From the IMG/VR virus record IMGVR_UViG_2595698451_000001, positions 91,632 to 155,631 of that record: a stretch of DNA of 64,000 nucleotides; one strand, given 5' to 3'. The notes under the pieces are model-generated. The model was given only the letters and a program-made list of their open reading frames with translations, made no database searches and had not been told where the DNA came from. Every line of letters starts with the position of its first letter. Position 1 is the first letter of the stretch. Both the position numbers and the translations under genes were made by a program. The DNA is from a virus (lineage: Duplodnaviria; Caudoviricetes). Below, one piece after another: positions 15,696-46,781 of this stretch.

Positions 15696-15696
15696 G

Positions 15697-16659: not shown

Positions 16660-16686
16660 GAAGGGGCTATAGCCCCTTCTTTTTTA
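16660..16686 (+). terminator. Intrinsic terminator
   Basis: GAAGGGGCT/AGCCCCTTC stem plus T run. Confidence 0.85.
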
Positions 16687-16791
16687 TATGTTAAAAACCT
16701 GAAATATTTTTAATATTTTTATTGACTATTTTAAAGAGCCCTGATAGAATATAGTTACAGGGTAAGAAACCTGTAGAAATGGAGGGAGATA

Positions 16792-30655: not shown

Positions 30656-30835
30656 AGTGCACATAAAAAATGACTTAAAAAAGAGGGCTGTATGCCTTCT
30701 TTTTTTTTTATTTTTTTTTTGAAAAAAGGGGTATAAAAACTATAGACAGTAATATACCTGTATGTTACACTGTTTACAGATAGTAAATACAGGGTATATA
30801 CAGTATTCTTAAAAATGAGAGGAGAGTTAAAAAAG

Positions 30836-31828: not shown

Positions 31829-31845
31829 TACAGGAGGAGTTTACT

Positions 31846-32259: not shown

Positions 32260-32269
32260 GAGGTAAACT

Positions 32270-34465: not shown

Positions 34466-34508
34466 CGGGCACCTCGTCCTATATTAGACACAGAAAGGAC
34501 GTGATGAT

Positions 34509-35942
34509 TTGAGCAAGTTTAGACCGAAATTCCATATTACACCGGAGAGTGGATGGATGAGTGATATTCAGCGCCCGCTATACCTTAACGGAGCTCATCA
34601 TTTGTTTTACCTCTATAACGGTGATTTTAGCTGGGGAGGTAATGGAACAGAGTGGGCACATGTAAAGTCCGTGGACTTGAAGAACTGGAAAAGGCTACCT
34701 ATAGCAATACCAAAGTACACAGATGAAGCCGGAGACCCATGGACCGGGAGTGCTATTGTGGACAAAGATAATACTGCGGGGTTTGGAGAGGGTGCCGTAA
34801 TCGCACTACTGACTATGCCAGCCCCAGAGTACCAATATACTCACCTGTGGTACAGTACAGATGAAGGTAGCAGCTTTAAACATTATAATCCTGGTCCTTC
34901 CTCTTCAACTCCACAGCCTGTAATGAAGAACCCGACAGGGAGTTCTGATTTTAGAGACCCGAAAGTAATTTGGCACGAAGAGACTCAAAGTTGGGTGATG
35001 CTGCTTGCAGAAGGGGACAAGGTAGGATTTTACAAGTCCAAAAATCTTAAGGACTGGGAATACCTTAGCGGGTTTGTAAGACCGGACATAGGGGTTATCG
35101 AATGTCCCGATCTTTTCCAGATCAACCTAGATGAAGACTCGAATAATAAAAAATGGGTTCTTATGATCGGGGGTAACGGGTTTAACTATGGCTTGACAAC
35201 TGGGTTCTGTTATTTTGTAGGTGACTTTGACGGGGTTAATTTTAAACCAGAGACCGACATTCAGTGGCTCGAAAGAGGGGCGGACTCCTATGCTGGAGCT
35301 ACTTGGGACGCACCGTATACAGAAGGTAACTATAGATACTACATCTCATGGATGAACAACTGGGCTTACGCATTAGAGACTCCTTGGGAAGAGTACAACG
35401 GGAACGCAAGTATAGTGAGAGAGCTGCGCCTGAAAACTGTTAAAGGCATACCTAAGCTCGTTCAGCAGCCACTCTGGAATTTGTCAGAAGGTTTCGAAGA
35501 GGTTCTATCCTTAAACCACTTTGAGCTCACAAGGGGTAACGTTATTCAGCAGTCTGACTTAAAATCGTACATAGTAAACCTAGCTGTAGAGGTAACTGAT
35601 GTCACAAGAGGTAAGTTTGGTATAGCTCTTCGAGACGGTGTAAACCACACTGATCTGGTATATGATGCAGCTAACAACGAGCTTATATTCAACCGTCAAC
35701 AGAGTGGAGCAGTAATTGACAAACCTGAGTTTAACAACTTACAACGAACAATAACCCTTCCTAAAGATGGACGAATTAAGTTAGAAATCGTAGTAGACAA
35801 CAGCACTGTGGAGATATTTGTTAATGACGGCGAAGAAGTCCTTTCAAATATGATATTCCCCGAAGAGGGCTCGACAGGATTCCGTATATGGACAGACGAT
35901 TCAGCGCTAATTGAAAGTCTGTCTATTAAGAAGGCGGACTAG
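34509..35942 (+). CDS. GH32 levanase/fructan hydrolase with no signal peptide
   Basis: WMSDIQRP, WTGSA, FRDPKV, IECPD and C-terminal DNSTVEIF beta-sandwich. Confidence 0.92.
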   Translation: MSKFRPKFHITPESGWMSDIQRPLYLNGAHHLFYLYNGDFSWGGNGTEWAHVKSVDLKNWKRLPIAIPKYTDEAGDPWTGSAIVDKDNTAGFGEGAVIALLTMPAPEYQYTHLWYSTDEGSSFKHYNPGPSSSTPQPVMKNPTGSSDFRDPKVIWHEETQSWVMLLAEGDKVGFYKSKNLKDWEYLSGFVRPDIGVIECPDLFQINLDEDSNNKKWVLMIGGNGFNYGLTTGFCYFVGDFDGVNFKPETDIQWLERGADSYAGATWDAPYTEGNYRYYISWMNNWAYALETPWEEYNGNASIVRELRLKTVKGIPKLVQQPLWNLSEGFEEVLSLNHFELTRGNVIQQSDLKSYIVNLAVEVTDVTRGKFGIALRDGVNHTDLVYDAANNELIFNRQQSGAVIDKPEFNNLQRTITLPKDGRIKLEIVVDNSTVEIFVNDGEEVLSNMIFPEEGSTGFRIWTDDSALIESLSIKKAD

Positions 35943-35962: not shown

Positions 35963-35991
35963 AAAAACAAGGGTTATCCCCTTGTTTTTTT
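35963..35991 (+). terminator. Intrinsic terminator between levanase and the parM module
   Basis: AAAAACAAGGG/CCCTTGTTTTT. Confidence 0.85.
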
Positions 35992-36003
35992 ATTTATGTA
36001 CAG

Positions 36004-36032
36004 ACATAGGATTCCGCATATGCCCATAAAGT
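36004..36032 (+). promoter_or_regulatory. Putative sigmaE-type promoter
   Basis: CATA (36005-36008), 16 nt, CATAAAGT (36025-36032); no sigmaA -35 or TATATTA motif here. Confidence 0.6.
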
Positions 36033-36087
36033 AGAATCACAAGGGTATTACAAAGTATGCGAAGGAATGACAAAGGAGGAGTTAAGT

Positions 36088-37167
36088 GTGACAAAGTATG
36101 CGGGTTTTAATGTAAAAGCGTTGGACGATGGGTATGGGGATGTAAAATTCGACAGCACAGGTTCTCCTAATCTTATCCCATCATTCGTCACAAGTTTTAA
36201 GGAAAAGCCTAAAAAGGACTTTGGGCAAGACAGCAAGCTGTGGTATGTAGCCAGCGAGATTGACGGAGAAAGATATGTAGTAGGAGACTACGCAATGAAG
36301 CTGGACCCAAACATCATCTGGGCTGGAGGGGAAAACAAACACACTGACAAGAGGTTCCCGGTCTTATTAAAAACTACCCTTGGGCTAATGAGCTCGGGAA
36401 GACATGAAGTAATCGACACACTTATGATGAACCTCCCTATCAGATACGACACAAAGGAAAGACGGCAGCAGCTTACAGAAGTAGCCCAAGGTACTCACAC
36501 CGTAGCTTTAAGTAGCGATGGGGTTAACTTCATTAAAAGAATGGTCACAGTAAATAACGTGGAGATTAAGAAGCAGCCGTTCGGTAGCCTGTGTGATGTG
36601 ATACTGGATGGTAACGGAGACATCATTGATAAGGACACAGCCAAAGGGTTCAACGTCATTGTAGATGTAGGTGCTCGGACACTAAACATCCTCACTGTAG
36701 ACGCCTTAGAGGAACAGACGGAGCTCTCACTACAAACGAACGATGGGATGTACACAGCATTCAGTCAGGTAGGTTCCTATCTAGAGAAGGAGCTTGACGT
36801 GATTATCCCGGACGGTAAGCTGCCGCAGATCATTAGCCAAAAGGAAATCAAGAATATGGATATCACACCGCTTATTAATAGCACGTACGAGAATCATGCA
36901 AACACAATACTAGCTGTACTAGATAAGGTGCTAGTCAACTCATGGGGTTTTGTTACTTCTGTCATCTTCACAGGCGGAGGAGCCGGGAAAGAGCTGCTGA
37001 GACCGTATATTGAAAAGCGCTTCAACAGAGTACCTTCTGTCTTCTTAGACCGTTATTCAAATGTCCAGGGTCTCCGTAAGTATGGAATCCGACAATCGAA
37101 AAAGAACCCTAAGAAGGTAAATAACATCAAGATTCAGGTGGGCAATCATGAGTACAGTCCGAAGTAA
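36088..37167 (+). CDS. ParM/StbA/Alp-family actin-like ATPase
   Basis: LDDGYGDVK, VDVGARTLN and IFTGGGA motifs; AAGGAGG RBS before GTG 36088. Confidence 0.9.
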   Translation: MTKYAGFNVKALDDGYGDVKFDSTGSPNLIPSFVTSFKEKPKKDFGQDSKLWYVASEIDGERYVVGDYAMKLDPNIIWAGGENKHTDKRFPVLLKTTLGLMSSGRHEVIDTLMMNLPIRYDTKERRQQLTEVAQGTHTVALSSDGVNFIKRMVTVNNVEIKKQPFGSLCDVILDGNGDIIDKDTAKGFNVIVDVGARTLNILTVDALEEQTELSLQTNDGMYTAFSQVGSYLEKELDVIIPDGKLPQIISQKEIKNMDITPLINSTYENHANTILAVLDKVLVNSWGFVTSVIFTGGGAGKELLRPYIEKRFNRVPSVFLDRYSNVQGLRKYGIRQSKKNPKKVNNIKIQVGNHEYSPK

Positions 37168-37453
37168 GAAAAACAACAGACGAACACTTTACCTTAGTGA
37201 TAGGAAGGATAAAGACATTCTGGATTACATTGAACCGCTTATGGATGATCGCTATGACTTTTCCTTTGTGATCCGGGAGCTGGTTAGAGACGGTATTAAA
37301 TATAGAACACGTCCGGCAGTAGCTCCCACACCCACTCAGGTTGTACCACAAGAAAATGGCATACAAAGTAATCCACCTGAGCTGTCCGATATCGTTCTGA
37401 AGAAGAAAGAGTTGTCCGATGAAGACATCGAGGAAAGGCTAGATAGCTTCTAA
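37148..37453 (+). CDS. ParR-like ribbon-helix-helix adaptor
   Basis: RTLYL..KDKDILDYI..FSFVIRELVRDGI plus acidic tail; overlaps the actin gene. Confidence 0.75.
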   Translation: MSTVRSKKNNRRTLYLSDRKDKDILDYIEPLMDDRYDFSFVIRELVRDGIKYRTRPAVAPTPTQVVPQENGIQSNPPELSDIVLKKKELSDEDIEERLDSF

Positions 37454-37563
37454 TTTCCCGCTTTTTTCCCTGAAAGCCATATTTCCCTTAATTCCCGCAT
37501 TTTTAGGGAAAAACGGCTGATTTATAAGGTTTCGGTGTATATGTTTTTAAGGGAAATTGGGAA
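37454..37563. repeat. TTCCC/GGGAA iteron cluster (candidate centromere-like site)
   Basis: TTCCC at 37455, 37466, 37483, 37492; GGGAA at 37506, 37551, 37559. Confidence 0.6.
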
Positions 37564-37579
37564 AGAAAAGGGATGCTGG

Positions 37580-38131
37580 TCACCCAACATCCGCCCAAGT
37601 TTTTCTTTGAATAATGTAAGAAATGGTTCTCCGATGTACCCCAAACATAGTAGATAACTTTTCGTGAGTATACTCTCCAGTTGCAGCTAGCTTTCTAATC
37701 TCAATGACATCCTGTTCTGTAAGTTCCGCCCGATTCCTACCTTTAGGTTTTGGTTTAGTTTTTTTGACTGGTTTTGTACGCTTTTTAACCGGAGGTTTCA
37801 TAAGTCCATGAGCATATGCGTGCTTATGGTTCTCACTCGATGTGCTCCACTCAAGGTTACTGATACAGTTGTTTTGTTTATTAGTATCTTTATGGTTGAC
37901 CTCTCGTTTGTTATCAGGATTAGGTATAAACACAAGAGCAACCAGACGGTGGACTCTATAATTTTTACACTGGCTGTTAGAACACAGAGACACCTGATGG
38001 TACCCTAACGGAGTAGTATAGGGTTTTAAAATACGACCAGTGTTAGCGTTTTTAACCCTACCTAACGTACTGACTGCATACTTGTCTCCATGTTTCACAA
38101 CACCTTTTAGGGATTCCCAATTTTCTTTCAT
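37580..38131 (-). CDS. Free-standing NUMOD4-HNH homing endonuclease
   Basis: YAVSTLGRV, VHRLVA, VNHKDTNKQNNCISNLEW, C-terminal HTH; own AAGGAG RBS and TG-TACAAT promoter. Confidence 0.9.
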   Translation of the reverse strand: MKENWESLKGVVKHGDKYAVSTLGRVKNANTGRILKPYTTPLGYHQVSLCSNSQCKNYRVHRLVALVFIPNPDNKREVNHKDTNKQNNCISNLEWSTSSENHKHAYAHGLMKPPVKKRTKPVKKTKPKPKGRNRAELTEQDVIEIRKLAATGEYTHEKLSTMFGVHRRTISYIIQRKTWADVG

Positions 38132-38235
38132 TATGGCAACTACTCCTTAATATATATATATTTGTCTTTATTGTACCACAATTCAGAAAACTAACAGGTG
38201 TTGAGGGAAATTTAAAATAGACAGGAGGGAAAAAG

Positions 38236-38796
38236 GTGGTCAAATACACAATCACTTCACGATTTCAGGCTACAGAAGCATTTAGGGATCATCCGCATAC
38301 AGGTGTCGATCTGGCGATGCCTGAAGGAACTGATCTGAAAGCCATAGTCGATGGAGTAATCAGAACAGCAGACTACGGTAGTTCTTCCACAGGAAAAACG
38401 GTGTTCATAGATGCGGCGGATGGAAGAACCTACATCTATGGACACCTGAAGGATTATTCAGTAAGCGATGGTCAGTCGGTCCATGTGGGTGATATTTTAG
38501 GTCATTCAGGTAATACGGGACACAGCACGGGTCCTCATCTCCACTTCGGTATAAAGGAGCACGGAGAATTTATAGACCCGACACCGTACACTTCACTCAT
38601 TCAGTATATGGATCAATTAAAAGGGGCAGCTCACGCAACCGTTAACTCTGGCTTGGATGCTCTGGAAATGCTAAACCAAGCGCTGAGCCAGTTTACTCAG
38701 ACGTTATCGGAGATGACGTTGAACTGCATCAGTCTATTACTCGAAAACCATACAGTGTCTCTAATATCCGATATAGTTCTCTCATGGTTATGTTGA
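38236..38796 (+). CDS. M23 peptidoglycan endopeptidase
   Basis: HTGVD, YGHL, GHSGNTGHSTGPHLHF; hydrophobic C-terminus, no signal peptide. Confidence 0.92.
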   Translation: MVKYTITSRFQATEAFRDHPHTGVDLAMPEGTDLKAIVDGVIRTADYGSSSTGKTVFIDAADGRTYIYGHLKDYSVSDGQSVHVGDILGHSGNTGHSTGPHLHFGIKEHGEFIDPTPYTSLIQYMDQLKGAAHATVNSGLDALEMLNQALSQFTQTLSEMTLNCISLLLENHTVSLISDIVLSWLC

Positions 38797-38890
38797 CATT
38801 CTGCTTATCCTGAATTGTGTGGAGAACAATATGATCGACATTCTGCATTTGCTTCTCGTATCTGGTCAGCGGTTTAGAATCAAAGAGCAT
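38729..38890 (-). CDS. 53-aa protein not in the ORF track (MLFDSKPLTRYEKQMQNVDH...LYGFRVID)
   Basis: Perfect AAAGGAGGT RBS (38906-38898) and sigmaG-type promoter on the minus strand. Confidence 0.75.
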   Translation of the reverse strand: MLFDSKPLTRYEKQMQNVDHIVLHTIQDKQNVNITMRELYRILETLYGFRVID

Positions 38891-38913
38891 GGTCGCTACC
38901 TCCTTTCAAGAGT

Positions 38914-38942
38914 TAGTATGTCCGATCGAATTTCAATTATAC
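38914..38942 (-). promoter_or_regulatory. Putative sigmaG-type promoter
   Basis: GTATA, 17 nt, CATACTA on the minus strand, matching the B. subtilis sigmaG consensus. Confidence 0.75.
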
Positions 38943-38956
38943 AGGGGGAATTAAAA

Positions 38957-39157
38957 ATGACGAGTATCTTTTTGGCAGTAGGTGGAGTTGCAGTTGTTTG
39001 TTCCGCAGGCACTGGTTTAGCAGCAGCTTTGAAATGGTTCCATAACTATGAGCCGGATGTGGATAAAAAGAAAAAGACCGTTAGAGAAACACGTAACCCG
39101 AACAGAAGCAGACTGGACGATTTGAGTAAAAAAGTACGTACAGATAATCACCTATAA
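38957..39157 (+). CDS. Small membrane protein
   Basis: GGGGGA RBS before ATG 38957; N-terminal hydrophobic segment, basic tail. Confidence 0.7.
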   Translation: MTSIFLAVGGVAVVCSAGTGLAAALKWFHNYEPDVDKKKKTVRETRNPNRSRLDDLSKKVRTDNHL

Positions 39158-39170
39158 GGGGGTAACTGAA

Positions 39171-39722
39171 ATGATCGTTACGATGTCATCTAGAGAGCTC
39201 AATTCAGCTGTCAGTTACAAAAGCCCGGTACAGCAGTTTAACCTTAAGGAGAAAGTTGAAGACGATGTGCTTTTTATTGCAAACACTTTACAAAAGGAGG
39301 TGATCGAGGGAACGACCGGACAGCAGAGAAAAAAGATCAAGCAGCTGAAGAAATTGCTGAAAGGGTTCGTTGTGGTTATGGGGGCGGGAATACAAGCAAC
39401 ACCCAAAGCCTTTGCCGCAGCACCCCTAACCGGAGCAACTACGTCAGCAGCAGCCAATCAGATAACACCAGCAATGGTGATGAGTTGGGGTCTGAATTTA
39501 GCTTTAATCTCTGTATCGGTGGGCGTAGCATTGTCGATGACTCTTCTGACACTAGCTGGGATCTACAGAATGATGAGGAAGAGAAAGGAAGCCCAAGAGT
39601 GGACTACCGATGTGATCAAGGGTCTCGTGCAGGTTTTAGTTGCAGTCCCGGTCGTATATCTGCTCTTTTATCTGGCGCAAACGGTATTCAAAAGCTTGCC
39701 GATTTTAAGCGGACTCTTTTAA
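39171..39722 (+). CDS. TrbC/VirB2 pilin-like membrane protein
   Basis: Basic/hydrophobic leader ending AFA, then two TM helices flanking a basic loop (RKRKEAQEW...IKGL). Confidence 0.55.
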   Translation: MIVTMSSRELNSAVSYKSPVQQFNLKEKVEDDVLFIANTLQKEVIEGTTGQQRKKIKQLKKLLKGFVVVMGAGIQATPKAFAAAPLTGATTSAAANQITPAMVMSWGLNLALISVSVGVALSMTLLTLAGIYRMMRKRKEAQEWTTDVIKGLVQVLVAVPVVYLLFYLAQTVFKSLPILSGLF

Positions 39723-40845
39723 AAGCAGCTACACTGGCACCCGTAGCGGTTCTCTCTTCTGCTGTTGTCTCTTCCATGTCGGCAAAAGCCTACGCACAAG
39801 CTACAGATGTAAAAGCACCCATCGACCTTCTTCTGCTGGGGCGTAACAAGGATCAAAATATCCTGACTGCTATACCCGATGCAGTACAGACGTTTAATAC
39901 AGCTGTAGCTAAAGTAAATGAGTTCCTTTCAGACCTCCCACACAATATCGCTGAAATGTCCGTCCATTTAATGAGCTGGCTGTATGAACTCTGTGCTACA
40001 CTGATCCTGAAGACTCCCTTGTGGCTTTTTAATAACGAGTGGTTTGAGAATACCACTTATCTGTTTAGTATGCTGGCTATTGGTATCGTTTCCGTTCTGA
40101 CCGTCATTGAATCGGTAAAGCTCATGCTCAGCAGAGGAAAGAAAAAGAGATCAGGTCCGATGGATTTTAAACTGATTATGCAACGGTGGGGAATTGTAGC
40201 AGCAGCAATGACTGGAATACCTTTCTGCTTTCAGAAAGCCTTCCAAGGACTGAACAAGATATCAGATGTACTCATCTCAATGGGAGCGAGTACGATGGAC
40301 GCTATCGCTCTCCCTACTCATATCTCTGTATGGGATGTGTGCTCGCTGGTGTTATTCGATGTAGTTCTTATTTCTACAATTGTTCCGGTGCTGTGGCAGA
40401 ATGGCAGAAGATTTTTTGATGTCATGGTTTTGGGAGTAACAGCTCCGCTGGCACTGACAGCTTGGATATTCGATCCGTACAGACATCTATTTCAGCAGTG
40501 GTGGAATAACTTGAAACACTTGTCTATGGTGCAGGTTTACTATGCGCTCTTCCTACTGATCCTTGGCTGGTTTATATTTGGCGTACCGACACCCAAGGAC
40601 GTTGTAGGGATCGTAGTGAAGATGCTTGTAGTAATCGGCGGGTTCACCAGAATGACTTCTCCACCAAGACTTATTGCTAAACATCTGGATAACGGTGGCG
40701 GGCTGGATGAGGTGTACGGCGGAGATAAAAATGATACCATTAAAAAAGTTCAACGGAACTTTAAGGATACAGCCAGATTCTCATGAAGCCATCTTCAGCG
40801 GCACAGACAGTTTACAAGCGTGTTAAAGACATGAAGAAAAAATAG
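39690..40845 (+). CDS. TrbL/VirB6-like polytopic membrane protein (start uncertain; frameshift near 40782)
   Basis: About 5-6 TM helices; RRFFDVMVLGVTAPLALTAWIFDP...FQQWW is a VirB6-type signature. Confidence 0.65.
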
Positions 40846-40856
40846 GAGGTAAAGTC

Positions 40857-40976
40857 ATGAGTGCAGGCATGCTTATTCTGATTCTGAATACAACGATGCT
40901 GCTAACAAATGCATTGGTTACATCAGTCCAAAGTAGTCTTATTATGAAAGCTGTGAGAGACGATGTTAAAAGTTAA
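40857..40976 (+). CDS. 39-aa hydrophobic peptide
   Basis: AGGAGGT RBS; overlaps the FtsK start. Confidence 0.6.
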   Translation: MSAGMLILILNTTMLLTNALVTSVQSSLIMKAVRDDVKS

Positions 40977-43197
40977 TCCAAGTTACCAGAACATTTCCAA
41001 TTACTTTGTGGAGACGCAGGAGGTGAGTACAGGGCTTTCCCGGGTCATAAAGGAAGTAACAGATTCTCTGTTTGGAGTAGAGGTCATAATGTCTTCAGGG
41101 GTGACCACTAAGTTTCTCATCACCCCTCCTCATGTTCGATTAGGAGAAGATGCCTCAAGCTTTCGAGAATCATCTGTGAGAGGTTTTACGTTCTATGAAG
41201 GGTATTTATCTCGTCCACACTTTCTACCGCTGTACGGAGCTAATAAGGGGCAATTTTTAAGTGATCTGGAGGACATTGCTTTGTACAATGGAGAGCGGTT
41301 GTGTATACAGCTGCTCTTTAAGAAAAAGTTCCATTGGAAAGAGAAAGCCTTAGACATGTATGCAAGTTACTTAGAAGGGAACGACTACCCGGCATCATCT
41401 AGAATCGGCAGACTCATTCAGGAGAAAACGTTGTCTGTACTGAATCGGGTGGCTTCTTTTGAATCGGTAAATGAGTACGTGCCGGAAGTGGAGGAGAAGT
41501 TACTTAGGGATGGCTTCCAGTTTCAAATGAGGGTAGCAATGCAATCCGAGCGAGAAGACTACTTAAAGAGCAGGGTCACTCAGGTATTGCGGGCTTACGA
41601 TTCCCATAATTCTATCCGGTTGTATAAACAAAAGCATAAACAAACCGAGACTCGATATGAAACCTGCATTATGACATCGGAGACAGGAGACCAGATAATA
41701 AGTACAAAAGAACTCTTCTCCTTATTAGGAAGCCAACACGTAGTAGCTCCCCAGACAGCCCCTGTTTCCTTATCTACACCGACAGTTACGAAAGAAATTA
41801 TTAAGCTGCTGCCGGAGCATCACAGAGAGGAAGTCCATGCAGATGAGAGCCTCGTAATGAACATAGCTGAAGCACTGAAGCGGGTAGGGCTGATTAAAAT
41901 GGCACGAGTCTACAATGAGTCTGTAACAGCAGGTATTCGGTTAACTGTAGTTCAATGCGACATCCCTAAAGGAAAGAACCTGAGTCATATTGTACAAAAA
42001 GGCAAGGACATACAGGCAGCGCTAGGTGTTCCGTCATTAGGAGTTGAGCAAGGAGATACTGCTGACACAGTTAAGTTTGTCATTCCGAATAATCAACCTG
42101 CTATCATCAGCCTTAGAGAACTGATTGGCACAGCCAACTTCCAAGAGTACAGTAAGAACAATGAACTAGCCTTTGCTGTAGGTGTGGACGAAGTGAACAA
42201 CCCAATTTATTTATCACTGGCTAAGCTTGTTCATCTCATGGTAGCGGGAACTACCGGAAGTGGTAAGTCCGTGTTCCTAAATTCGATGATCACTACGCTG
42301 CTGGTCAGTTACCCTCCTGATAGGTTACGGATGACGCTGATTGACCCTAAGCAAGTAGAGCTACAGCAGTACAAGGGATTCCCTCATGTAGACGATGTGG
42401 TCACAGACATGGGAGGTGCTGCACAAGTATTAGAAGACCTTGTTATGGAAATGGAGAAGCGGTACAAAACATTTAAAGATAACGATGTGAAGAACATTAC
42501 TCTGTATAACCAGAAGTCAAGTACACCTATGCCTTATACTGTCTGTGTTATAGATGAGTATGCGGACCTTGTGGACACGAATAAGGAAGTCGAAGAATAC
42601 ATTGCTCGCTTGGGGCAGAAGGCACGGGCAGCAGGTATTCACCTAGTCATCGCCACTCAGAGACCGAGTTCGAACATTCTTAGCGGTAGGATCAAAGCAA
42701 ACATCCCGAACGCCATTAGCTTCAACTTAAACACCAGCGTCAATTACAGAACTGTTTTTGGTACGACTATCCCTTATACTGGGTTGTTAGGTAAAGGAGA
42801 CGGAGTAATGAAGATTGAGGGATACCCTAAAGAGTTCCAACGTTTCCAGAGTGCTATAATTGCCCCGGATGAGGCGGAGGAGGAGAAAGTATACAAAGAC
42901 CTTATTGACTACTATGGGGGAGCTGAAGTTTCTCCAGAGGCAGAGGAGGTACCGGAACAGCCGGAACAAGAACCTGAAATTGAGGATGACCACCTATACC
43001 GACTAAAGCAAGTAATAGCTACTACAGAGGAAACCAGAGTAGAGCCACTTAGGAAAGCATTAGGTGTGAAGACTGCAAAGATGAAGGAACTCATGGGTAA
43101 ATTAGTGGAAGAGGGTTGGCTTGTTAAGCACAAGGAGCGGTCTAAAGGTTACGAGCTGGTCTGTCCTGAGTCAATCTTATCAGAATGGAGAGAATAA
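40963..43197 (+). CDS. FtsK/SpoIIIE-family DNA translocase
   Basis: HLMVAGTTGSGKS, IDPK, VIDEYADL, ARAAGIHLVIATQRPS, LLGKGD; C-terminal winged-helix-like domain. Confidence 0.93.
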   Translation: MLKVNPSYQNISNYFVETQEVSTGLSRVIKEVTDSLFGVEVIMSSGVTTKFLITPPHVRLGEDASSFRESSVRGFTFYEGYLSRPHFLPLYGANKGQFLSDLEDIALYNGERLCIQLLFKKKFHWKEKALDMYASYLEGNDYPASSRIGRLIQEKTLSVLNRVASFESVNEYVPEVEEKLLRDGFQFQMRVAMQSEREDYLKSRVTQVLRAYDSHNSIRLYKQKHKQTETRYETCIMTSETGDQIISTKELFSLLGSQHVVAPQTAPVSLSTPTVTKEIIKLLPEHHREEVHADESLVMNIAEALKRVGLIKMARVYNESVTAGIRLTVVQCDIPKGKNLSHIVQKGKDIQAALGVPSLGVEQGDTADTVKFVIPNNQPAIISLRELIGTANFQEYSKNNELAFAVGVDEVNNPIYLSLAKLVHLMVAGTTGSGKSVFLNSMITTLLVSYPPDRLRMTLIDPKQVELQQYKGFPHVDDVVTDMGGAAQVLEDLVMEMEKRYKTFKDNDVKNITLYNQKSSTPMPYTVCVIDEYADLVDTNKEVEEYIARLGQKARAAGIHLVIATQRPSSNILSGRIKANIPNAISFNLNTSVNYRTVFGTTIPYTGLLGKGDGVMKIEGYPKEFQRFQSAIIAPDEAEEEKVYKDLIDYYGGAEVSPEAEEVPEQPEQEPEIEDDHLYRLKQVIATTEETRVEPLRKALGVKTAKMKELMGKLVEEGWLVKHKERSKGYELVCPESILSEWRE

Positions 43198-43304
43198 AAT
43201 TGAGTTATTTTGCATAAAGGGGTTGACTTTCAGTCAGCTCCTTTTTATACTGTGTATAGAAGCTGTAACAAAGGCTATAAAATACAGAGCAGGGAGAGAT
43301 TACA

Positions 43305-46300
43305 ATGATTTCAGAACCGCAAGTACACATGTACATGAGTGAAAAGGAGTTCGATAGGCTCGTAGCGGGGGAGACTGCTTATGGGTACTCTGAGGGTTTT
43401 ACCGAGTACAACATCCATGTGAGCGTACCTATACGTTTTGTAGAGGCAGTCACAGATGTTTCTGAGAGTGGCAACCTGTATTATGAATACTACGTAAAAT
43501 ACAAGGAGGGCAAGTAACATGGTTGAAAAAGTAACGATTGAGATCACAGGAGAAAAAGCAGTAGTAAGGCTTCTAGACGGATACGGTAAAGAACTAAACC
43601 ACGCAGTAACAGTACCTGAAGAACGAGGACTTGTTACTAGGTATGCAAAAGAACCGTTTGATGAGATGGACGAGGAGGTCCTACCTGAAGAATTGGGGGA
43701 AGCTCTGGATAGCGGGTTTTTCGTTGAGGAAGTTCTCTGGGCGTTAGAGGAGCTACAATAAACTTATGGTATACTAAAAACTCCAGATTAACTAAACGGA
43801 AGCGGAGTTGAAATAATGTTTTACTTTTACATTCTACAGATGGCATTTTGGGGTGCATGCGTGTACCTGTTCATTATAGACATTATTTTTAAGCGAGGTA
43901 CGCTACTTGACTATTACGGGGATGCTGCTCTCCTGACATTAGGGTTTTATCTTATTTGGAGGTTAAACCCTGTGTTCTGGGAGCTGGTTGAGAAATTTAA
44001 AAACAAGTGGAAAAGAAAATAAGGAGGAGTGCTGCTGAATGAAGTCATTGAGAGCGAGAGCAATGCTTAAGTCATTAGGATTTATTAAAAAAGCAAACGG
44101 ACACTACGTTAAGAATGAGGAATGTACTTGGTGTGAGGGTCTTGACTCTACGGATTGCTGGGTGTGCCAAGGATCAGGGGAGTCTACTAGCTGGCTTATC
44201 TTGGACCAGTTTAAGGAAGTTATTAGAGATAGTGGTTACCACACCACAGTTGCGCCTTGCGAACATTGCGGAGAAGTAACTCAGATAGATTATGATTACT
44301 GGTGCTGTGGTGGGTACTTATGTGAATGTATGGGAGAGCGTATTAGCTACGCAGTATGTAACACCTGTAAGGAATGTGTTAATAAAGGGGAGACCGTCTA
44401 ATGAAAGCCGTTAAGATTACCACAGTTCAAGGAACTAAGAACCAACCCTCTTTCTTTATTGAGGACACAATATACGAGGAGCAAAAACGGAAGGTAGCCG
44501 CCGCAGCAGAGGTTATAGACAGGCTAAACAAGGAGGTTAAGTCATGATACCTATTCGAGTATGGGACCAACAAAACCATATGATGCATTATCTATCAGAT
44601 GATCCTGTGGCACTTACAGTTACAATATCTGATGATTCTTGGTTCCTAGGTCATGGACATTATGGTCTTGTAACAGACTACAACTCAGGAGCCCTAATGC
44701 TGGGAACAGATCAGTTTGACACTGGGGACAGAGAGTTAACTAAAGGGGACCGTATCTACGCTAACGACATCGTTTTGCAGGAAGAACAGGCACCGGGGAA
44801 CCCTACAGGTATCCTTAAGATTGTAGGTATTGTGAAGATGCTCGATGGGGCATGGGTTATAGATACTGGGAGCGAGGCTGTACCTTTGTTCTCAGAGACA
44901 GCTACAAATACAATTCTAGGGGACGTGTTCACCACCCCTTACTTAACGGAGGCACTAGGATGCGAAAGACAACAAAAATACAGTTGATGTATACTGGTAC
45001 TCTTGCAGCTATAACTCTTCTGTTCCACGTAATATACTATCAGGTTACAGGAGAGGTTAAGGAGAACGCTATAGCGCCTAACATACTTTGTATAATCGTG
45101 TACTATATAGCCTTAGGTGTTGGGTTAAATGAAGGGAGAGCTATGGGGTATAACGAATGCGTAAAGCACTTAGAGGAAAGGTTCAAAAAGAGATAAACCT
45201 ATCAGGATGGAGTGGGTACTATGGAAAAAATAAAACTGACTAGACAACTAGCAGACCTTCTTGAAGCGCAGCTCGCTGAGGTATCAATACACATTAACAG
45301 TAAGGACCATGAAGACATAAGTCACTTCCTTATCACCACTATGTTTAGCTACGAGCAAAGACCTAAACGTTATAATAAATTCTTCAGTGGGGCATACACA
45401 GACTTGCTCTCTAGTCTAGGAGATATGAAGTATATAGATGCCTTACGAGTAGGTTATGAAATAGAGACTACTCTAGAAGAGGAGTATACTGAGGCTTGGG
45501 AGCGGCAGGCAGAACACTTCCAGAAAAAATTGAAGCAAGAAGCCACCCTCCCTAATTCGAAAGAGTATTGGTACTACAAAGGTAGACGTGACGAAGCTCT
45601 AGAATCTTTAGAAACCTTTAAAACGTACCTAAAACAGAAAGATGAGCGGGGGAGCTCCGAATGAGGCTCTTGTTTAAAGATCGCTTCTGTAACATCGTAT
45701 ACGCCTGTGGTGGGGTTGCAGCGCTTTTAAATATATTTGTGTTTAAAGGCTCTGTAGAGTATACTTTTATAGCCATCTTACTGTTTATGATGTTCCGTGC
45801 AGGCTACATTTTAGGAGAATACAGTGCGGAAGCGAGGAGAAAGAGAGATGAATAAGTCTGTTGAAGATAAGTTTAGCCACCTCCCGGATGCGGAGAGGTA
45901 CATCTTACACAAATGTCAGGAAGACTTGGATGCAGCCCGAGAGGAGTTTAAAGACCACTGGGTGTCTTGGACTGCTTTAGACGGTACTACTTATGAAGGG
46001 GTTTTCCTATGTGTAGAGTTTGGAGAGTACATCGTTCTCTGCCCTAACGGAGAGTACCGAAATGTCCAAGAGGATACTAAGGGGAAGGTTACAGACCCCT
46101 ACCAACTGCTTCTTGATGAGCTAGAGGAACAAGTGAAGGAGGATAAATGAATGGCACATTATGATGACTTGTATGAGGATATCACAGAAGATGAAATCAA
46201 AGAGAGGATTTCCAATGCTGAGCGTAGAATAGATATGTACAAAGAGAGGGTATCTGAGATGAAGGCAGACCTGAACCGTTATGCCTTACTAAACAAAACC

Positions 46301-46447
46301 TCTAGGGATATTCTACAAAATGCAAAGGAGCAAGATGAATTAGCCATACGGGTTGTACAAACTTCAGTAGAGAAGATGACAAGGATGCTTGAAAGGGTAC
46401 TCAACGGAGAAAAAATACCCCGTATAAATTTTAAATATTACAGTTGA
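43305..46447 (+). CDS. Operon of small hypothetical genes, including a Cys-rich protein (44039-44401) and small membrane proteins
   Basis: sigmaA promoter near 43224; abutting RBS-led ORFs. Confidence 0.65.
44544..44987 (+). CDS. YopX-family protein
   Basis: IRVWD...LMLGT...IYANDIV...ILGDVF pattern. Confidence 0.7.
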   Translation: MIPIRVWDQQNHMMHYLSDDPVALTVTISDDSWFLGHGHYGLVTDYNSGALMLGTDQFDTGDRELTKGDRIYANDIVLQEEQAPGNPTGILKIVGIVKMLDGAWVIDTGSEAVPLFSETATNTILGDVFTTPYLTEALGCERQQKYS

Positions 46448-46535
46448 AGAGTATATTGGATTAGAGATTAGATAGGCAGGCGGTCTTAGTCTTATATTGA
46501 GATAGAGACCGTCTGTAGCAGCAGGAGGGGGATAT

Positions 46536-46781
46536 ATGGATTATAGTAAGCTAACAGACGAAGAGCTCCTTCAGACGGTCTCAGGACTGCATGACGTGGA
46601 ACTGAACGAGGAGTGGCGCCGTAGACACGGGATTAACTTCCCTTATAGACTTGATATCTTTGGTAGGATTCTAAATTGCATGTCCTATCAGATAATGCAA
46701 GACAGTGAGTGTGATAAGTTAATCGTCCAGCAGGCGAATGAAGTTCGTGTCCATAGGCAGTTCACAAACCTTAAATTCTAA
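46536..46781 (+). CDS. Hypothetical protein upstream of an XRE regulator
   Basis: GGAGGGG RBS; upstream hairpin enclosing TCTTATATTG. Confidence 0.7.
   Translation: MDYSKLTDEELLQTVSGLHDVELNEEWRRRHGINFPYRLDIFGRILNCMSYQIMQDSECDKLIVQQANEVRVHRQFTNLKF

What the first reader, a model, noticed from the sequence alone, without database searches (positions are those of the whole stretch)
36004..43197. Candidate phage machine for delivering its DNA into the developing spore (ParMR + M23 + pilin/VirB6-like + FtsK/SpoIIIE) under sporulation-sigma control
Seen: a self-contained block, bounded by a terminator upstream and a new sigmaA promoter downstream. It encodes an actin-like ATPase, an RHH adaptor, an iteron cluster, an M23 peptidoglycan hydrolase, small TM peptides, a pilin-like protein, a VirB6-like protein and an FtsK/SpoIIIE ATPase. 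No relaxase or VirB4 is present. Apart from the inserted HNH gene it lacks the sigmaA and TATATTA promoters used elsewhere, and has a sigmaE-type promoter at its head and a sigmaG-type promoter inside. Established: sigmaE is mother-cell specific, sigmaG is forespore specific, SpoIIIE pumps DNA across the sporulation septum, lytic Bacillus phage genomes can become trapped in spores, and ParM/FtsK genes have been annotated individually in related phages. Inference: a minimal relaxase-free dsDNA transfer system, analogous to Streptomyces TraB conjugation, that positions phage DNA, opens septal peptidoglycan and pumps the genome from mother cell to forespore, so a virulent phage can persist in spores.
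Basis: partly seen in the sequence, partly recalled or inferred. Interest (0 to 1): 0.92.

Follow-up and report, generated by a model that had tools for sequence, protein, structure and literature searches.

The report
Phage DNA pump with sporulation-type promoters
A large lytic Bacillus phage carries a conserved, transferable gene block that joins a DNA-positioning filament to a stripped-down conjugation-type membrane channel and DNA motor, with promoters that look sporulation-specific, so it may push phage DNA into the forming spore, though this is untested.

Summary
The block is real and is a discrete module. This scan has noted it before on other DNA: 15 findings in at least 14 genomes.

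The window is part of a complete 155.6-kb Nitunavirus-like Bacillus subtilis myophage. Window 35963-43251 holds:
- a terminator;
- a ParM-like actin ATPase and a small adaptor;
- a TTTCCC repeat array, split by an inserted HNH gene;
- an M23 peptidase;
- a conserved antisense 53-aa gene;
- a DUF7394 peptide;
- a TrbC/VirB2-like protein and a VirB6-like protein;
- a 39-aa peptide;
- a soluble ATPase.

New here: the ATPase's N-terminal domain folds like the VirB4 N-terminal domain, ahead of an FtsK-type motor and a winged helix. "No VirB4" is therefore only half right.

The same block occurs in 19 of 19 phage loci examined, including an SPbeta-like temperate phage at 95.5% identity. It also occurs on plasmids and chromosomal contigs of spore-formers.

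Two promoters private to the module are conserved: a sigmaE-like one at the head and a sigmaF/G-like one on the minus strand, which drives the 53-aa gene.

Spore delivery is coherent but unproven (about 0.4). A related phage "DNA translocation operon" was published in 2012. Verdict: new variant of a known kind, interest 0.7.

The parts
35963..35989 (+). Intrinsic terminator closing the upstream levanase (GH32) gene; upstream boundary of the module
   Evidence: 11-pair stem followed by a T run. Retained with the block in Goe14.
36004..36032 (+). Head promoter candidate: ACATAGG, 14 nt, CATAAAGT. SigmaE-like by a consensus recalled from memory.
   Evidence: A [CT]CCATA[AT] box sits at the equivalent place in 14 of 17 phage upstream regions, against 424 of 8500 shuffled sequences. 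GTACWGRCA-N17-19-CATA occurs once in the 155.6-kb genome and 0 times in the controls.
36067..37167 (+). Actin-like (ParM/Alp-type) ATPase, 366 aa
   Evidence: ALP_N 73.4 bits, MreB-like_C 66.4 bits; phrog_691, E 2e-100; tblastn E 6e-16 to SPO1 gp27.9.
37148..37453 (+). 101-aa putative adaptor (ParR-like); RHH fold not confirmed
   Evidence: phrog_3536. No Pfam, NCBIfam or PDB match. Atlas leads to Plasmid_stab_B, TacA, CcdA and MetJ at 0.77-0.85. Its start overlaps the parM stop. A small gene sits at the same place in all loci.
37454..37575 (.). TTTCCC / GGGAAA repeat array (centromere-like or motor-loading site), continued at 38205-38232 beyond the HNH insertion
   Evidence: A different repeat (TTACCC / GTTACC) lies at the same position in the bacterial loci L008 and L005.
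37580..38131 (-). HNH/NUMOD4 homing endonuclease; an insertion, not part of the module
   Evidence: Absent from Grass and Goe14. RNA-library contigs of runs X4-X6 join 37468 to 38231.
38236..38796 (+). M23 metallo-endopeptidase, 186 aa. The HxxxD and HxH motifs are present; there is no N-terminal signal peptide.
   Evidence: 98.7 bits. Motifs read in the translation; the motif names are recalled from memory.
38729..38890 (-). Conserved 53-aa gene, antisense to the last 68 nt of the M23 gene; function unknown
   Evidence: 64% and 42% identity to annotated genes of Goe7 and Atlee. Found in 15 further viral loci. No family match.
38914..38942 (-). SigmaF/G-type promoter candidate: GTATA, 17 nt, CATACTA, followed by a strong RBS
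   Evidence: GTAT[AT]-N17/18-xAxxxTA is present in 16 of 16 sequences from 5 lineages, with divergent spacers. The exact pattern occurs once in the window against 0.0 +/- 0.2 expected. Similar sites were found by pattern in 4 of 8 bacterial or plasmid loci.
38957..39157 (+). DUF7394 single-pass membrane peptide, 66 aa, with a basic tail
   Evidence: A homologue in the Sporosarcina locus scores 34.5 bits against a cut-off of 27.
39171..39722 (+). TrbC/VirB2-like protein, 183 aa: a long leader ending A-x-A, then two hydrophobic helices around a basic loop
   Evidence: phrog_3528. Alignment A3. Homologues hit Pfam TrbC: Niallia 31.0 bits against 27.9; NEB577 plasmid 22.4 bits and Fictibacillus 16.8 bits, both below the cut-off. 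The window's own protein does not hit.
39776..40786 (+). VirB6/TrwI-like polytopic membrane protein. Coordinates run from the first ATG; conserved coding continues upstream to about 39707.
   Evidence: Model with pLDDT 72. The Foldseek top 5 are all TrwI/VirB6. VIA Z 10.3-11.0 over 225-239 residues; the next unrelated match is 7.4. phrog_3750.
40857..40976 (+). 39-aa hydrophobic peptide whose stop overlaps the ATPase start
   Evidence: phrog_4802, E 1.5e-18. tblastn hits in 13 of 19 phage loci.
40963..43197 (+). Soluble hybrid ATPase, 744 aa: VirB4-type N-terminal domain (1-262), FtsK-type motor, C-terminal winged helix
   Evidence: FtsK motor 2ius, E 2e-54. NTD model pLDDT 82.8. TrwK/VirB4 residues 33-397 match at Z 11.4-12.5, rmsd 3.3-3.7 A over 207-209 residues; the next unrelated match is 6.7. 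A MarR-type HTH is found in the Sporosarcina homologue. No hydrophobic segment (read).
43223..43251 (+). SigmaA-type promoter of the next transcription unit; downstream boundary
   Evidence: (TTGACT-17-TATACT, 10 of 12).

Best explanation
The block is a mobile module for handling the element's own double-stranded DNA. It has three parts.

1. A type-II partition cassette: a ParM-like actin ATPase, a small adaptor and a repeat array. It positions the DNA, probably towards a pole.

2. A reduced type-IV-secretion-like translocon.
- An M23 endopeptidase thins peptidoglycan.
- A VirB6-like protein, a VirB2-like protein and two small peptides form the membrane part.
- A soluble ATPase docks on it through a VirB4-type N-terminal domain. 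It pumps dsDNA with an FtsK-type motor and chooses its substrate with a C-terminal winged helix, perhaps at the repeat array.

3. A divergent 53-aa gene of unknown role.

Favoured biological role: during sporulation, the module is expressed in the mother cell from the sigmaE-like head promoter and carries the phage or plasmid genome into the forespore. There, the sigmaF/G-type promoter switches on the 53-aa gene.

Shown here: gene content, folds, synteny, horizontal transfer, repeat array, and conservation and uniqueness of the promoter motifs.

Inferred: all binding, the direction and substrate of transport, which sigma factor reads the promoters, and the effect on spores.

My odds: about 0.65 for a segregation cassette plus T4SS-like DNA translocon, and about 0.4 for the whole statement including the spore role.
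For: Parts of the translocon.
- Family and fold assignments.
- The VirB2-like, VirB6-like and VirB4-NTD parts lie together. This is the triad that makes up the archaeal Ced DNA-import system (PMC11868833, passages read).

A selected unit.
- Gene order is the same in 19 of 19 phage loci and in 5 of 5 bacterial genome loci.
- The core is on 3 plasmids inspected.
- The block is 95.5% identical in an SPbeta-like temperate phage with unrelated flanks.

A cis site.
- A repeat array sits at a fixed position, but its motif differs between phage and bacterial copies.

Link to sporulation.
- Every nameable carrier is a spore-former. Phages: 156 of 158 records are named Bacillus. Plasmids: Bacillus, Niallia, and a plasmid labelled Arthrobacter that carries a SASP gene. 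Genome contigs: Fictibacillus, Metabacillus, Sporosarcina and two Bacillus.
- The two promoter motifs are conserved and unique to the module.
- A sigmaF/G-like site lies ahead of the antisense small genes in plasmid and chromosomal copies too.
- There is no strong sigmaA promoter inside the block.

Consistent with a role outside laboratory lytic growth.
- Deleting the analogous operon of phage 0305phi8-36 gave no growth defect (PMC3357382, abstract and sections read).
Against: - No experiment links the block to spores.
- The sigma assignments rest on consensus sequences that I recalled from memory.
- The phage has its own SigF/G-family sigma factor, which could serve the antisense promoter in ordinary infection.
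- The M23 protein has no signal peptide, so how it would reach septal peptidoglycan is open.
- Canonical VirB4 and T4CP domains are absent.
- The VirB6 fold match (Z about 11) is below the level at which helical bundles are safe (note).
- The window's own VirB2-like protein does not reach the Pfam TrbC cut-off.
- Contigs holding the block occur in RNA libraries of two studies, with unknown growth state. If those were vegetative cultures, this would count against sporulation-only expression.
- The host restriction is confounded by descent: one phage subfamily plus a few elements, and only 2 of 401 sampled genomes of the class carry it.
- 0A boxes are not enriched: 3 against 5.4 expected.
Confidence: 0.4

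Rival explanations
1. The module only maintains the DNA inside one cell line. The actin cassette partitions the phage or plasmid genome in a carrier or plasmid-like state. The FtsK-type ATPase clears DNA caught by closing septa, as SftA, SpoIIIE and FtsK do. The membrane proteins merely anchor the ATPase at the septum. No new channel is made.
For: - The motor is much closer to true FtsK than to coupling proteins (2ius E 2e-54 against 6o1w E 1.6e-17).
- The carriers are large, low-copy, 'non-mobilizable' plasmids (12 of 12).
- The ParM link is universal.
- Phages are known to use chromosome-segregation genes for plasmid-like states (PMC10294663, passage read).
Against: - This does not explain a VirB2-like protein with a cleavable leader, a peptidoglycan hydrolase, or a VirB4-type docking domain.
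- The host already supplies SpoIIIE and SftA (my own knowledge).
Confidence: 0.2
2. The module gives capsid-independent, conjugation-like spread of dsDNA between neighbouring cells, such as chains or biofilms. This was proposed for the 0305phi8-36 operon and is known for Streptomyces TraB.
For: - PMC3357382 proposes exactly this for a related phage operon (discussion read).
- The parts are of T4SS type.
- No relaxase was found, as in dsDNA transfer.
- The block has moved between unrelated phages.
Against: - The plasmids that carry it are typed non-mobilizable, although that typing keys on relaxases.
- Nothing in this model explains the restriction to spore-formers or the sporulation-type promoter motifs.
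- The NCBIfam TraB model scores 57.7 bits against a cut-off of 800.
Confidence: 0.15
3. The module belongs to the ordinary lytic programme. Its private promoters are read by the phage's own SigF/G-family sigma factor or another phage factor. The proteins organise phage DNA for replication or packaging, or remodel the envelope, independently of sporulation.
For: - A SigF/SigG-family sigma gene lies 4.2 kb upstream of the block (187 bits, below the family cut-off of 311).
- Related phages carry such sigma factors too (PMC3601020 and PMC9429907, passages read).
- Contigs in RNA libraries cover the block.
Against: - Plasmid and chromosomal copies keep a similar antisense promoter. Whether those elements encode a phage-type sigma factor was not checked.
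- The head promoter has a CATA-type -10, not a sigmaF/G type.
- When induced in B. subtilis, the Goe3 sigma factor changed expression of fewer than 50 host genes (PMC9429907, passage read).
Confidence: 0.15
4. The apparatus does not move DNA. It exports a protein, excludes superinfecting phage, or alters the wall. The FtsK-type ATPase would act as in type VII secretion (EssC/EccC).
For: - The ATPase also matches EssC and EccC models (TIGR03928 E 1.9e-31; 7np7 E 3.9e-23).
- An ESX-3 translocon chain is the next fold match of the N-terminal domain (6umm_A, Z 9.1).
Against: - The matches to FtsK are far stronger.
- A C-terminal winged helix, a repeat array and a partition cassette all point to DNA.
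Confidence: 0.1

Closest known systems
'DNA translocation operon' of Bacillus phages 0305phi8-36 (orf200-207) and SPO1 (gp27.3-27.9); Pathria et al. 2012, PMC3357382 (abstract and sections 7-9, 15, 16 read)
   Same: - A non-essential island in a lytic Bacillus phage.
- It holds an actin-like gene, small membrane peptides, a translocase without transmembrane helices and, in 0305phi8-36, a VirB6 homologue.
- The window's ParM matches SPO1 gp27.9 at E 6e-16.
   Different: - Those operons have an AAA_10-type ATPase and a Replic_Relax relaxase (SPO1 gp27.3, 47.5 bits).
- The window's genome has neither (with the control).
- No sequence match between the ATPases or to a VirB6-like gene in SPO1 (E > 1).
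- The paper mentions neither spores nor promoters (0 occurrences of 'spore').
Archaeal Ced/Ted DNA-import system (CedA = VirB6-like, CedA1 = VirB2-like, CedB/CedD = VirB4-like); PMC11868833, passages read
   Same: - A minimal T4SS-like set of just VirB2-, VirB6- and VirB4-type parts.
- No relaxase and no outer-membrane complex.
- It moves DNA between compartments or cells.
   Different: - It is archaeal and imports DNA.
- Its ATPase domain is of HerA/VirB4 type, not FtsK type.
- It has no partition cassette or hydrolase.
- No sequence relation to the window's proteins was tested here.
Canonical conjugative T4SS (R388 Trw: TrwL/VirB2, TrwI/VirB6, TrwK/VirB4)
   Same: - Fold-level matches to TrwI (Z 10.3-11.0) and to the TrwK N-terminal domain (Z 11.4-12.5).
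- Pfam TrbC hits in homologues of the 183-aa protein.
- A dedicated wall hydrolase.
   Different: - No VirB4-type ATPase domain, no VirD4 and no relaxase were found.
- VirB3, VirB5 and VirB8-11 were not searched for.
- The motor is of FtsK type with a winged helix.
Streptomyces TraB / clt dsDNA conjugation
   Same: - An FtsK-like hexameric motor with a C-terminal winged helix and short repeats as the cis site.
- No relaxase; a dsDNA substrate. (These TraB properties are from my own knowledge.)
   Different: - TraB works essentially alone and is itself membrane-associated.
- Here the ATPase is soluble and comes with T4SS-type membrane parts.
- The NCBIfam TraB model scores 57.7 bits against a cut-off of 800.
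SpoIIIE / FtsK chromosome translocases
   Same: The motor domain: PF01580 at 162 bits and PDB 2ius at E 2e-54. A winged-helix tail in the position of the gamma domain.
   Different: - The N-terminal four-helix membrane anchor is replaced by a soluble VirB4-like domain.
- The NCBIfam FtsK model scores 195.6 bits against a cut-off of 1566.
Minimal FtsK-type transfer modules of Gram-positive plasmids (pELF2 traC/traD/traG; pCW3 Tcp); PMC13492992, passages read
   Same: An FtsK/VirD4-type ATPase lacking transmembrane helices, a VirB4-like partner function and a VirB6-like membrane protein, all in one operon.
   Different: - There, two separate ATPases are stacked; here, one hybrid protein.
- Those systems give conjugation between cells of a non-sporulating host.
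- No sequence relation was tested here.

Membership tests
Type IV secretion / conjugation system | VirB4-family ATPase (the only ubiquitous T4SS protein, per PMC4027160 abstract in the listing) | tested here: inconclusive
   No AAA_10 or CagE_TrbE_VirB match in the whole genome. But the ATPase's N-terminal domain matches TrwK/VirB4 residues 33-397 at Z 11.4-12.5, while the motor domain is of FtsK type.
Type IV secretion / conjugation system | VirB6/TrbL polytopic channel protein | tested here: inconclusive
   No Pfam or NCBIfam hit. Profile against PDB gives TrwI at E 2.4. At fold level the top 5 Foldseek hits and the top 3 VIA hits are TrwI (Z 10.3-11.0), which is below the safe level for helical bundles.
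Type IV secretion / conjugation system | VirB2/TrbC pilin | tested here: inconclusive
   The window's protein has no TrbC hit. Of 6 homologues scanned, 1 is above the cut-off (31.0 against 27.9), 2 are below it and 3 have no hit. The shared architecture is shown in A3. Profile against PDB found nothing.
Type IV secretion / conjugation system | Relaxase with oriT | tested here: not met
   PF03432 and PF13814 are absent from the complete genome. PF13814 was found in SPO1 as a positive control. Other relaxase families were not searched.
FtsK/SpoIIIE translocases | FtsK-type RecA-like motor with Walker A/B | tested here: met
   PF01580 at 162.1 bits against a cut-off of 24. 2ius at E 2e-54. The Walker A GxxGSGKS motif and the DEY motif are invariant across 11 sequences.
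FtsK/SpoIIIE translocases | N-terminal multi-pass membrane anchor that targets the septum | tested here: not met
   There is no hydrophobic segment in residues 1-320 (read). The N-terminal domain is modelled as a soluble alpha/beta domain with pLDDT 82.8.
FtsK/SpoIIIE translocases | C-terminal gamma winged helix that reads polarity motifs | tested here: inconclusive
   TrmB-type HTH at E 0.0044, below the cut-off, in the window's tail. MarR at 26.4 bits against 24.6 in the Sporosarcina homologue. The tail is conserved in 11 of 11 sequences. DNA binding cannot be tested here.
Type II (ParMRC) partition system | Actin-like ATPase | tested here: met
   ALP_N and MreB-like_C are above their cut-offs. 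It is not an equivalog of R1 ParM: NF010498 scores 73.6 bits against a cut-off of 417.
Type II (ParMRC) partition system | RHH adaptor (ParR) encoded directly after the ATPase | tested here: inconclusive
   Position and size fit. No family or PDB match. Atlas leads only.
Type II (ParMRC) partition system | Centromere made of short iterated repeats | tested here: met
   Six of 35 TTTCCC copies lie within 111 bp. Arrays with another motif lie at the same place in L008 and L005. The array is downstream of the adaptor gene rather than upstream. Binding was not tested.
Streptomyces TraB-type transfer | TraB equivalog acting without T4SS membrane parts | tested here: not met
   NF041214 scores 57.7 bits against a cut-off of 800. 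VirB2- and VirB6-like genes are present.
SigmaE and sigmaF/G regulons of Bacillus sporulation | Promoter read by the sporulation sigma factor in vivo | not testable with these tools
   Only motif matches (consensus recalled from memory), their conservation and their uniqueness. The contigs from RNA libraries show neither start sites nor growth conditions.
0305phi8-36 / SPO1 'DNA translocation operon' | Replic_Relax relaxase plus AAA_10-type translocase beside an actin-like gene | tested here: not met
   The actin-like gene is shared (E 6e-16). The relaxase and AAA_10 are absent. The ATPases are not alignable by tblastn.

The most novel reading that the evidence does not exclude
Large virulent phages, a temperate phage and megaplasmids of endospore-formers share a dedicated, relaxase-free, T4SS-derived dsDNA translocon. 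Its motor is a VirB4-NTD/FtsK hybrid, guided by an actin partition system. Compartment-specific sporulation sigma factors switch it on: the mother cell for the pump, the forespore for the 53-aa gene. [quoted passage not shown] This would be a programmed route to 'virospores' and to plasmid inheritance through spores, and the first T4SS-like machine that works between the two compartments of one sporangium.
Probability: 0.35. Interest if true: 0.9.

Novelty: new variant of a known kind. Interest (0 to 1): 0.7.

Why it matters
How lytic phage genomes and large low-copy plasmids get into the small forespore is an old open question. For phi29 it is explained by host Spo0J/parS and Spo0A (cited in PMC9429907 and PMC12991052, passages read). 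For other phages it has been left to chance.

A conserved module with a positioning filament, a channel and a motor, plus promoter motifs of mother-cell and forespore type, makes the question directly testable. Standard B. subtilis genetics would do, using laboratory phages that carry the block (SBSphiJ, Grass, the Goe phages).

Independently of function, the ATPase is a natural hybrid of a VirB4 docking domain and an FtsK motor. It bears on how T4SS ATPases, coupling proteins and FtsK are related. It also adds a bacterial counterpart to the minimal VirB2/VirB4/VirB6 set of the archaeal Ced system.

The block has moved between a virulent myophage and an SPbeta-like temperate phage at 95.5% identity. 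That shows it is exchanged as a working cassette.

Tried and rejected
Searches that found nothing useful.
- Megablast of the block against plasmids: no match.
- Sequence-only PDB searches were not significant. VirB2-like profile: best FliQ, E 9.8. VirB6-like profile: TrwI, E 2.4. 101-aa protein: E 0.4 or worse.
- Atlas search of the ATPase N-terminal domain: best 0.81, unnamed clusters, no lead.
- 0A boxes: 3 in the window against 5.4 expected, one of them inside parM at 36148-36154. Not enriched.
- SPO1 upstream region of gp27.9: no recognisable shared promoter.
- Papers holding 'Bacillus phage', 'VirB6' and 'FtsK': 0. Papers holding 'DUF7394': 0. The 'VirB4/FtsK/Bastille' search listed nothing that describes this module. 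These searches cover open-access text only.

Distribution.
- The VirB6-like gene was found in 2 of 401 genomes sampled from the class of the Sporosarcina genome, one of them the query genome itself. No taxonomy is given, so this cannot test the link to spore-formers.

RNA libraries.
- In runs X4-X6 (study P3) contigs cover only 36044-43194. The flanks 30000-35873 and 43350-46000 have no cover.
- Contig depths differ 5- to 10-fold within the block, which hints at RNA rather than contaminating DNA, but contigs cannot rank genes.
- The contigs run on beyond 43194 into sequence like that after the ATPase gene in Goe14. I compared by eye: 2 differences in 30.
- I did not try to identify the study or the organism.

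Ideas rejected.
- A sigmaH reading of the head: an AGGA-type box plus GAAT is present, but the spacing is 18 rather than about 14 (consensus recalled from memory).
- A sigmaK reading: CATAnnnTA is met in the window but not in the other lineages.
- A sigmaA reading of the head: TAGAAT in the window and TATAAT in Grass, but no -35 box. This reading is not excluded if an activator exists.
- A slippery-site -1 frameshift at the VirB2-like stop: the codons before the stop are TTT, TTA, TTC or TAT and are not uniformly slippery. Left open.

Not consulted.
- Supplementary files of papers were not opened. The supplementary tables of PMC9429907 and PMC10294663 may list this ATPase among phage sporulation homologues.

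Full report
WHAT THE WINDOW IS

The window is bases 91632-155631 of a complete 155,631-bp virus record with direct terminal repeats. The block 36004-43197 matches 51 phage records, all named Bacillus. In 28 of them one place covers at least 80% of the query. Identity is 97% to BSP15 and 94-96% to SPG24, SBSphiJ and Grass (genus Nitunavirus, Herelleviridae, Bastillevirinae).

CHECK OF THE OBSERVATION

Boundaries.
- The upstream terminator (35963-35989) and the downstream sigmaA-type promoter (43223-43251, 10 of 12) are both present.
- Promoter-like sites overall are no more frequent than in shuffles: 21 against 22.7 +/- 4.7.

Genes confirmed by family searches.
- An actin-like ATPase.
- A 101-aa protein with no family beyond phrog_3536.
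- An HNH/NUMOD4 gene on the minus strand.
- An M23 peptidase. The HxxxD and HxH motifs are readable in the translation; the motif names are recalled from memory.
- A DUF7394 peptide.
- A 183-aa two-helix membrane protein (phrog_3528).
- A polytopic protein (phrog_3750).
- A 39-aa peptide (phrog_4802).
- A 744-aa ATPase with an FtsK_SpoIIIE domain.

HNH insertion. The HNH gene is missing from Grass and Goe14. Contigs of runs X4-X6 skip it.

SigmaA promoters. Strong sigmaA-like promoters (10 or more of 12) stand in 28 of the 61 intergenic gaps I scanned. None stands in the 5 gaps inside the block, where the best match is 8-9.

THE MEMBRANE PARTS

VirB6-like protein.
- The AlphaFold model was built from an alignment of 29 sequences (pLDDT 72, pTM 0.59).
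- Its five best Foldseek matches are all TrwI/VirB6 chains of the R388 system (E 0.04-0.28, probability 0.97-1.00).
- In the VIA second look, TrwI scores Z 10.3-11.0 (rmsd 5.2-5.6 A over 225-239 residues). The next, unrelated match is 7.4.
- The tool warns that helical bundles need about Z 13 to be safe. I therefore treat this as good but not conclusive support.
- One GenBank record (phage Atlee) already labels the homologue 'conjugal transfer protein TrbL'.

VirB2-like protein.
- The 183-aa protein itself does not reach Pfam TrbC.
- Its plasmid homologue in Niallia does: 31.0 bits against a cut-off of 27.9.
- Two further homologues match below the cut-off over nearly the whole profile.
- All seven aligned members share three features: a long leader ending A-x-A, two hydrophobic helices, and a basic loop between them. 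That this is the propilin layout is my own knowledge.

THE ATPASE IS A HYBRID

- The motor is closest to genuine FtsK (2ius E 2e-54). The NCBIfam FtsK, EssC and TraB models are all far below their cut-offs.
- The protein has no hydrophobic segment.
- I modelled residues 1-262 from 11 sequences of phage and bacterial loci (pLDDT 82.8, pTM 0.81).
- The best Foldseek matches are TrwK/VirB4 chains (E 0.012-0.05).
- In VIA-align the five best entries are all TrwK/VirB4, residues 33-397: Z 11.4-12.5, rmsd 3.3-3.7 A over 207-209 residues.
- Next come an ESX-3 translocon chain (Z 9.1) and unrelated folds at 6.7 or below.
- This is an alpha/beta domain, so the margin is meaningful.
- The tail is a conserved winged-helix-like segment. 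Evidence: TrmB at E 0.0044 in the window; MarR above its cut-off in the Sporosarcina homologue; conservation in 11 of 11 sequences.
- The module therefore has VirB2-, VirB6- and VirB4-NTD-type parts but an FtsK-type engine.
- The genome has no AAA_10, CagE_TrbE_VirB, Relaxase (PF03432) or Replic_Relax (PF13814) match. The last search was validated on SPO1.

THE BLOCK IS A CONSERVED, MOBILE UNIT

Phages.
- tblastn with the VirB6-like protein finds 158 phage records. Of these, 156 are named Bacillus. Two carry other labels: 'Phage f2b1', host written as Staphylococcus aureus, and a 'Xanthomonas phage'.
- With the window's eight proteins as queries, 19 of 19 phage loci show ParM, adaptor, DUF7394, VirB2-like, VirB6-like and ATPase in the same order. 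The loci are Grass, Goe14, Goe7, Atlee and 15 viral contigs.
- M23 sits after the adaptor in 8 of the 19. In Atlee it lies just downstream of the ATPase gene.
- Goe14 is an SPbeta-like temperate phage. It carries the block at 95.5% identity between yonO-type and aimR genes. The homology begins in the 3' end of the levanase gene and ends at the ATPase's last sense codon.

Plasmids and chromosomes.
- Twelve plasmids carry the VirB6-like gene: 10 Bacillus, 1 Niallia, 1 labelled Arthrobacter citreus. All are typed non-mobilizable.
- In the three I inspected, the VirB2-like, VirB6-like and ATPase genes are adjacent. The 'Arthrobacter' plasmid has a small acid-soluble spore protein gene beside them.
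- Five genome contigs (Fictibacillus, Metabacillus, Sporosarcina, two Bacillus) carry the whole order: actin-like, small gene, M23, DUF7394-like, VirB2-like, VirB6-like, ATPase. Four of the five also have an HTH gene between M23 and the DUF7394-like gene.

THE CIS SITE

- TTTCCC is not enriched in the window as a whole: 35 against 36.6 expected.
- But 6 copies lie within 111 bp after the adaptor gene, four direct (one as TTCCC) and four inverted by reading. Two more lie beyond the HNH insertion.
- At the same position, the Sporosarcina and Fictibacillus loci carry arrays of a different motif, TTACCC / GTTACC.
- A fixed place with a changing motif is what a protein-bound site would show.

PROMOTERS

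Head promoter.
- It reads ACATAGG, 14 nt, CATAAAGT.
- However, a [CT]CCATA[AT] box sits at the alignable place in 14 of 17 phage upstream regions, which form five lineages with divergent flanks. It occurs in 424 of 8500 shuffled sequences. The three exceptions are L016, L020 and L022.
- The extended motif occurs once in the whole genome. It is therefore not a general phage promoter class.

Antisense promoter.
- The second promoter is on the minus strand: GTATA, 17 nt, CATACTA, then a strong RBS and a 53-codon ORF.
- That ORF is a real gene. It is 64% and 42% identical to annotated genes of Goe7 and Atlee and is found in 15 further viral loci.
- All 16 sequences keep GTAT[AT], 17-18 nt, xAxxxTA, while the spacers differ.
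- The matching pattern hits the genome twice; its reversed control hits three times. The pattern is thus not a class either.
- In bacterial and plasmid loci, my pattern finds a like site ahead of minus-strand small ORFs at the equivalent place in 4 of 8 loci.
- By eye, three more loci have GAATA- or GTATA-type near-matches. The second small ORF there ends like the phage protein. This was read by eye, not aligned with a tool.

Caveats on the promoters.
- The consensus sequences for sigmaE, F, G, K and H are recalled from memory.
- The phage encodes a SigF/SigG-family sigma factor at 30815-31828 (187 bits, below the family cut-off of 311).
- For the related phage Goe3, such a factor reduced spore yield by more than 50% and changed expression of fewer than 50 host genes (PMC9429907, passages read).
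- Host or phage sigma is therefore an open question.

RNA LIBRARIES

- Contigs of one food metatranscriptome run (X1, study P1) and three runs of another study (X4-X6, study P3) hold the block at 90-99% likeness. They bridge parM, the adaptor and M23, and also the VirB2-like, VirB6-like and ATPase genes.
- The tool states that this does not show transcription. The growth state is unknown.
- An earlier follow-up in this scan reported expression in lysogens. I did not verify that beyond the above.

WHAT IS IN PRINT

- The Grass announcement lists FtsK/SpoIIIE and ParM as features of unknown role (PMC3853049, passages read).
- The Bc431v3 paper lists the FtsK/SpoIIIE-like protein, a segregation protein and sigma F/G genes (PMC3601020, passages read).
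- Two papers speculate that phage segregation genes raise entrapment in spores (PMC10294663 and PMC12991052, passages read).
- Pathria et al. 2012 described a 'DNA translocation operon' in 0305phi8-36. It has a relaxase, a translocase without transmembrane helices, a VirB6 homologue and an actin homologue. Its deletion gave no growth defect. They noted a similar operon in SPO1 and proposed cell-to-cell spread in biofilms (PMC3357382, abstract and sections read). I learned of this paper from earlier notes of this scan and then read it.
- I checked SPO1. Its ParM matches at E 6e-16. Its ATPase gp27.4 and relaxase gp27.3 have no counterpart in the window.
- The window's module is thus a cousin of that operon: the same idea, with a different engine and no relaxase.
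- The archaeal Ced system (PMC11868833, passages read) and the pELF2 tra operon (PMC13492992, passages read) are the nearest functional parallels.
- My three searches found no paper on the VirB2/VirB6/VirB4-NTD content of the Bastille-type module, nor on DUF7394.

HOW IT MOST LIKELY WORKS

1. The actin cassette binds the repeat array and moves the DNA.
2. The M23 enzyme opens peptidoglycan.
3. The VirB6-like and VirB2-like proteins and the small peptides form a membrane conduit.
4. The hybrid ATPase docks on the conduit by its VirB4-type domain. It loads on DNA through its winged helix and pumps dsDNA.

I give about 0.65 to this molecular reading.

For the biological role I favour transfer or retention of the genome in the forespore, at about 0.4 for the whole chain. 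Four things point that way:
- every nameable carrier is a spore-former;
- large phage and plasmid genomes share the need to enter the forespore;
- the two conserved private promoters have mother-cell-type and forespore-type motifs;
- the block lacks ordinary promoters.

Against this reading:
- the M23 protein has no export signal;
- the ATPase's docking is untested;
- the host restriction is confounded by descent;
- the phage has its own sigma factor.

The rivals are pure intracellular maintenance (0.2), cell-to-cell spread (0.15), an ordinary lytic function under phage sigma control (0.15) and non-DNA transport (0.1).

VERDICT

- The thing is a new variant of a known kind: minimal FtsK- or T4SS-type DNA translocation modules, foreshadowed for phages in 2012.
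- This scan has met it repeatedly on other genomes.
- Interest is 0.7. The spore hypothesis is now sharply testable in a model organism, and the VirB4-NTD/FtsK hybrid motor is unusual.

Noticed in passing
window 39683-39790; also L002, L003, L005-L009, L011, L013, L014, L017, L020, L023, L033: In 15 of 15 loci the VirB6-like frame is -1 relative to the VirB2-like frame. The VirB2-like stop abuts a conserved signal-peptide-like segment of the VirB6-like ORF. A canonical start codon ahead of that segment exists in only 4 of the 15 (L003, L005, L006, L007), and not in the window or the 6 other phage loci. Database start sites disagree, and Grass leaves the gene unannotated. Possible causes are a non-AUG start, re-initiation or a -1 frameshift.
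   Followed up: partly
window 30815-31828 and 31846-32259: The phage encodes a SigF/SigG-family sigma factor of 337 aa (187 bits, below the cut-off of 311). It is followed by a 137-aa protein with a weak HTH match. They lie 4.2 kb upstream of the block.
   Followed up: partly
window 34509-35942: A GH32 levanase-type gene lies directly upstream of the block (233.8 bits). Its last ~60 bases and terminator travelled with the block into the SPbeta-like phage Goe14.
   Followed up: partly
window 46608-46737 compared with L004 11544-11660: The sequence that follows the ATPase gene in Goe14, and in the contigs of runs X4-X6, resembles window 46608-46737. The window therefore has about 3.4 kb (43198-46607) that those copies lack (compared by eye).
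   Followed up: no
window 37580-38131; L011 6969-7694: Homing endonucleases have entered the module at different places. In the window an HNH gene splits the repeat array. In Atlee another HNH gene lies between the VirB6-like gene and the small peptide gene.
   Followed up: no
L033 (CP053689.1) 10447-10647: The plasmid labelled Arthrobacter citreus NEB 577 carries an alpha/beta-type small acid-soluble spore protein gene next to the module. The organism label is doubtful, and a spore-former is likely.
   Followed up: no
L005 8200-8600, L009 8350-8720, L002 6900-7500, L008 8567-8718 (minus strands): Bacterial and plasmid copies have two small minus-strand ORFs: one of about 25 aa, then one of about 50 aa that ends like the phage 53-aa protein. 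They are divergent from an HTH gene that the phages lack (read by eye).
   Followed up: partly
window 36045-36061 and 36086-36102: A 17-nt direct repeat (88% identity) straddles the parM ribosome-binding site and its first codons (family D2). It might be an autoregulatory site.
   Followed up: no
L034 (SPO1) 11820-17330, minus strand: SPO1 gp27.9-27.3 form an analogous operon: a ParM homologue, a 141-aa protein, three peptides of 48-73 aa with hydrophobic stretches (read by eye), a 906-aa P-loop ATPase with no hydrophobic stretch noticed by eye, and a Replic_Relax protein. It has no VirB6-like gene detectable by tblastn.
   Followed up: partly
L003 (Niallia plasmid) 3010-5132: An sdpABC-like sporulation-delaying toxin operon lies about 3 kb upstream of the module on the Niallia plasmid.
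   Followed up: no
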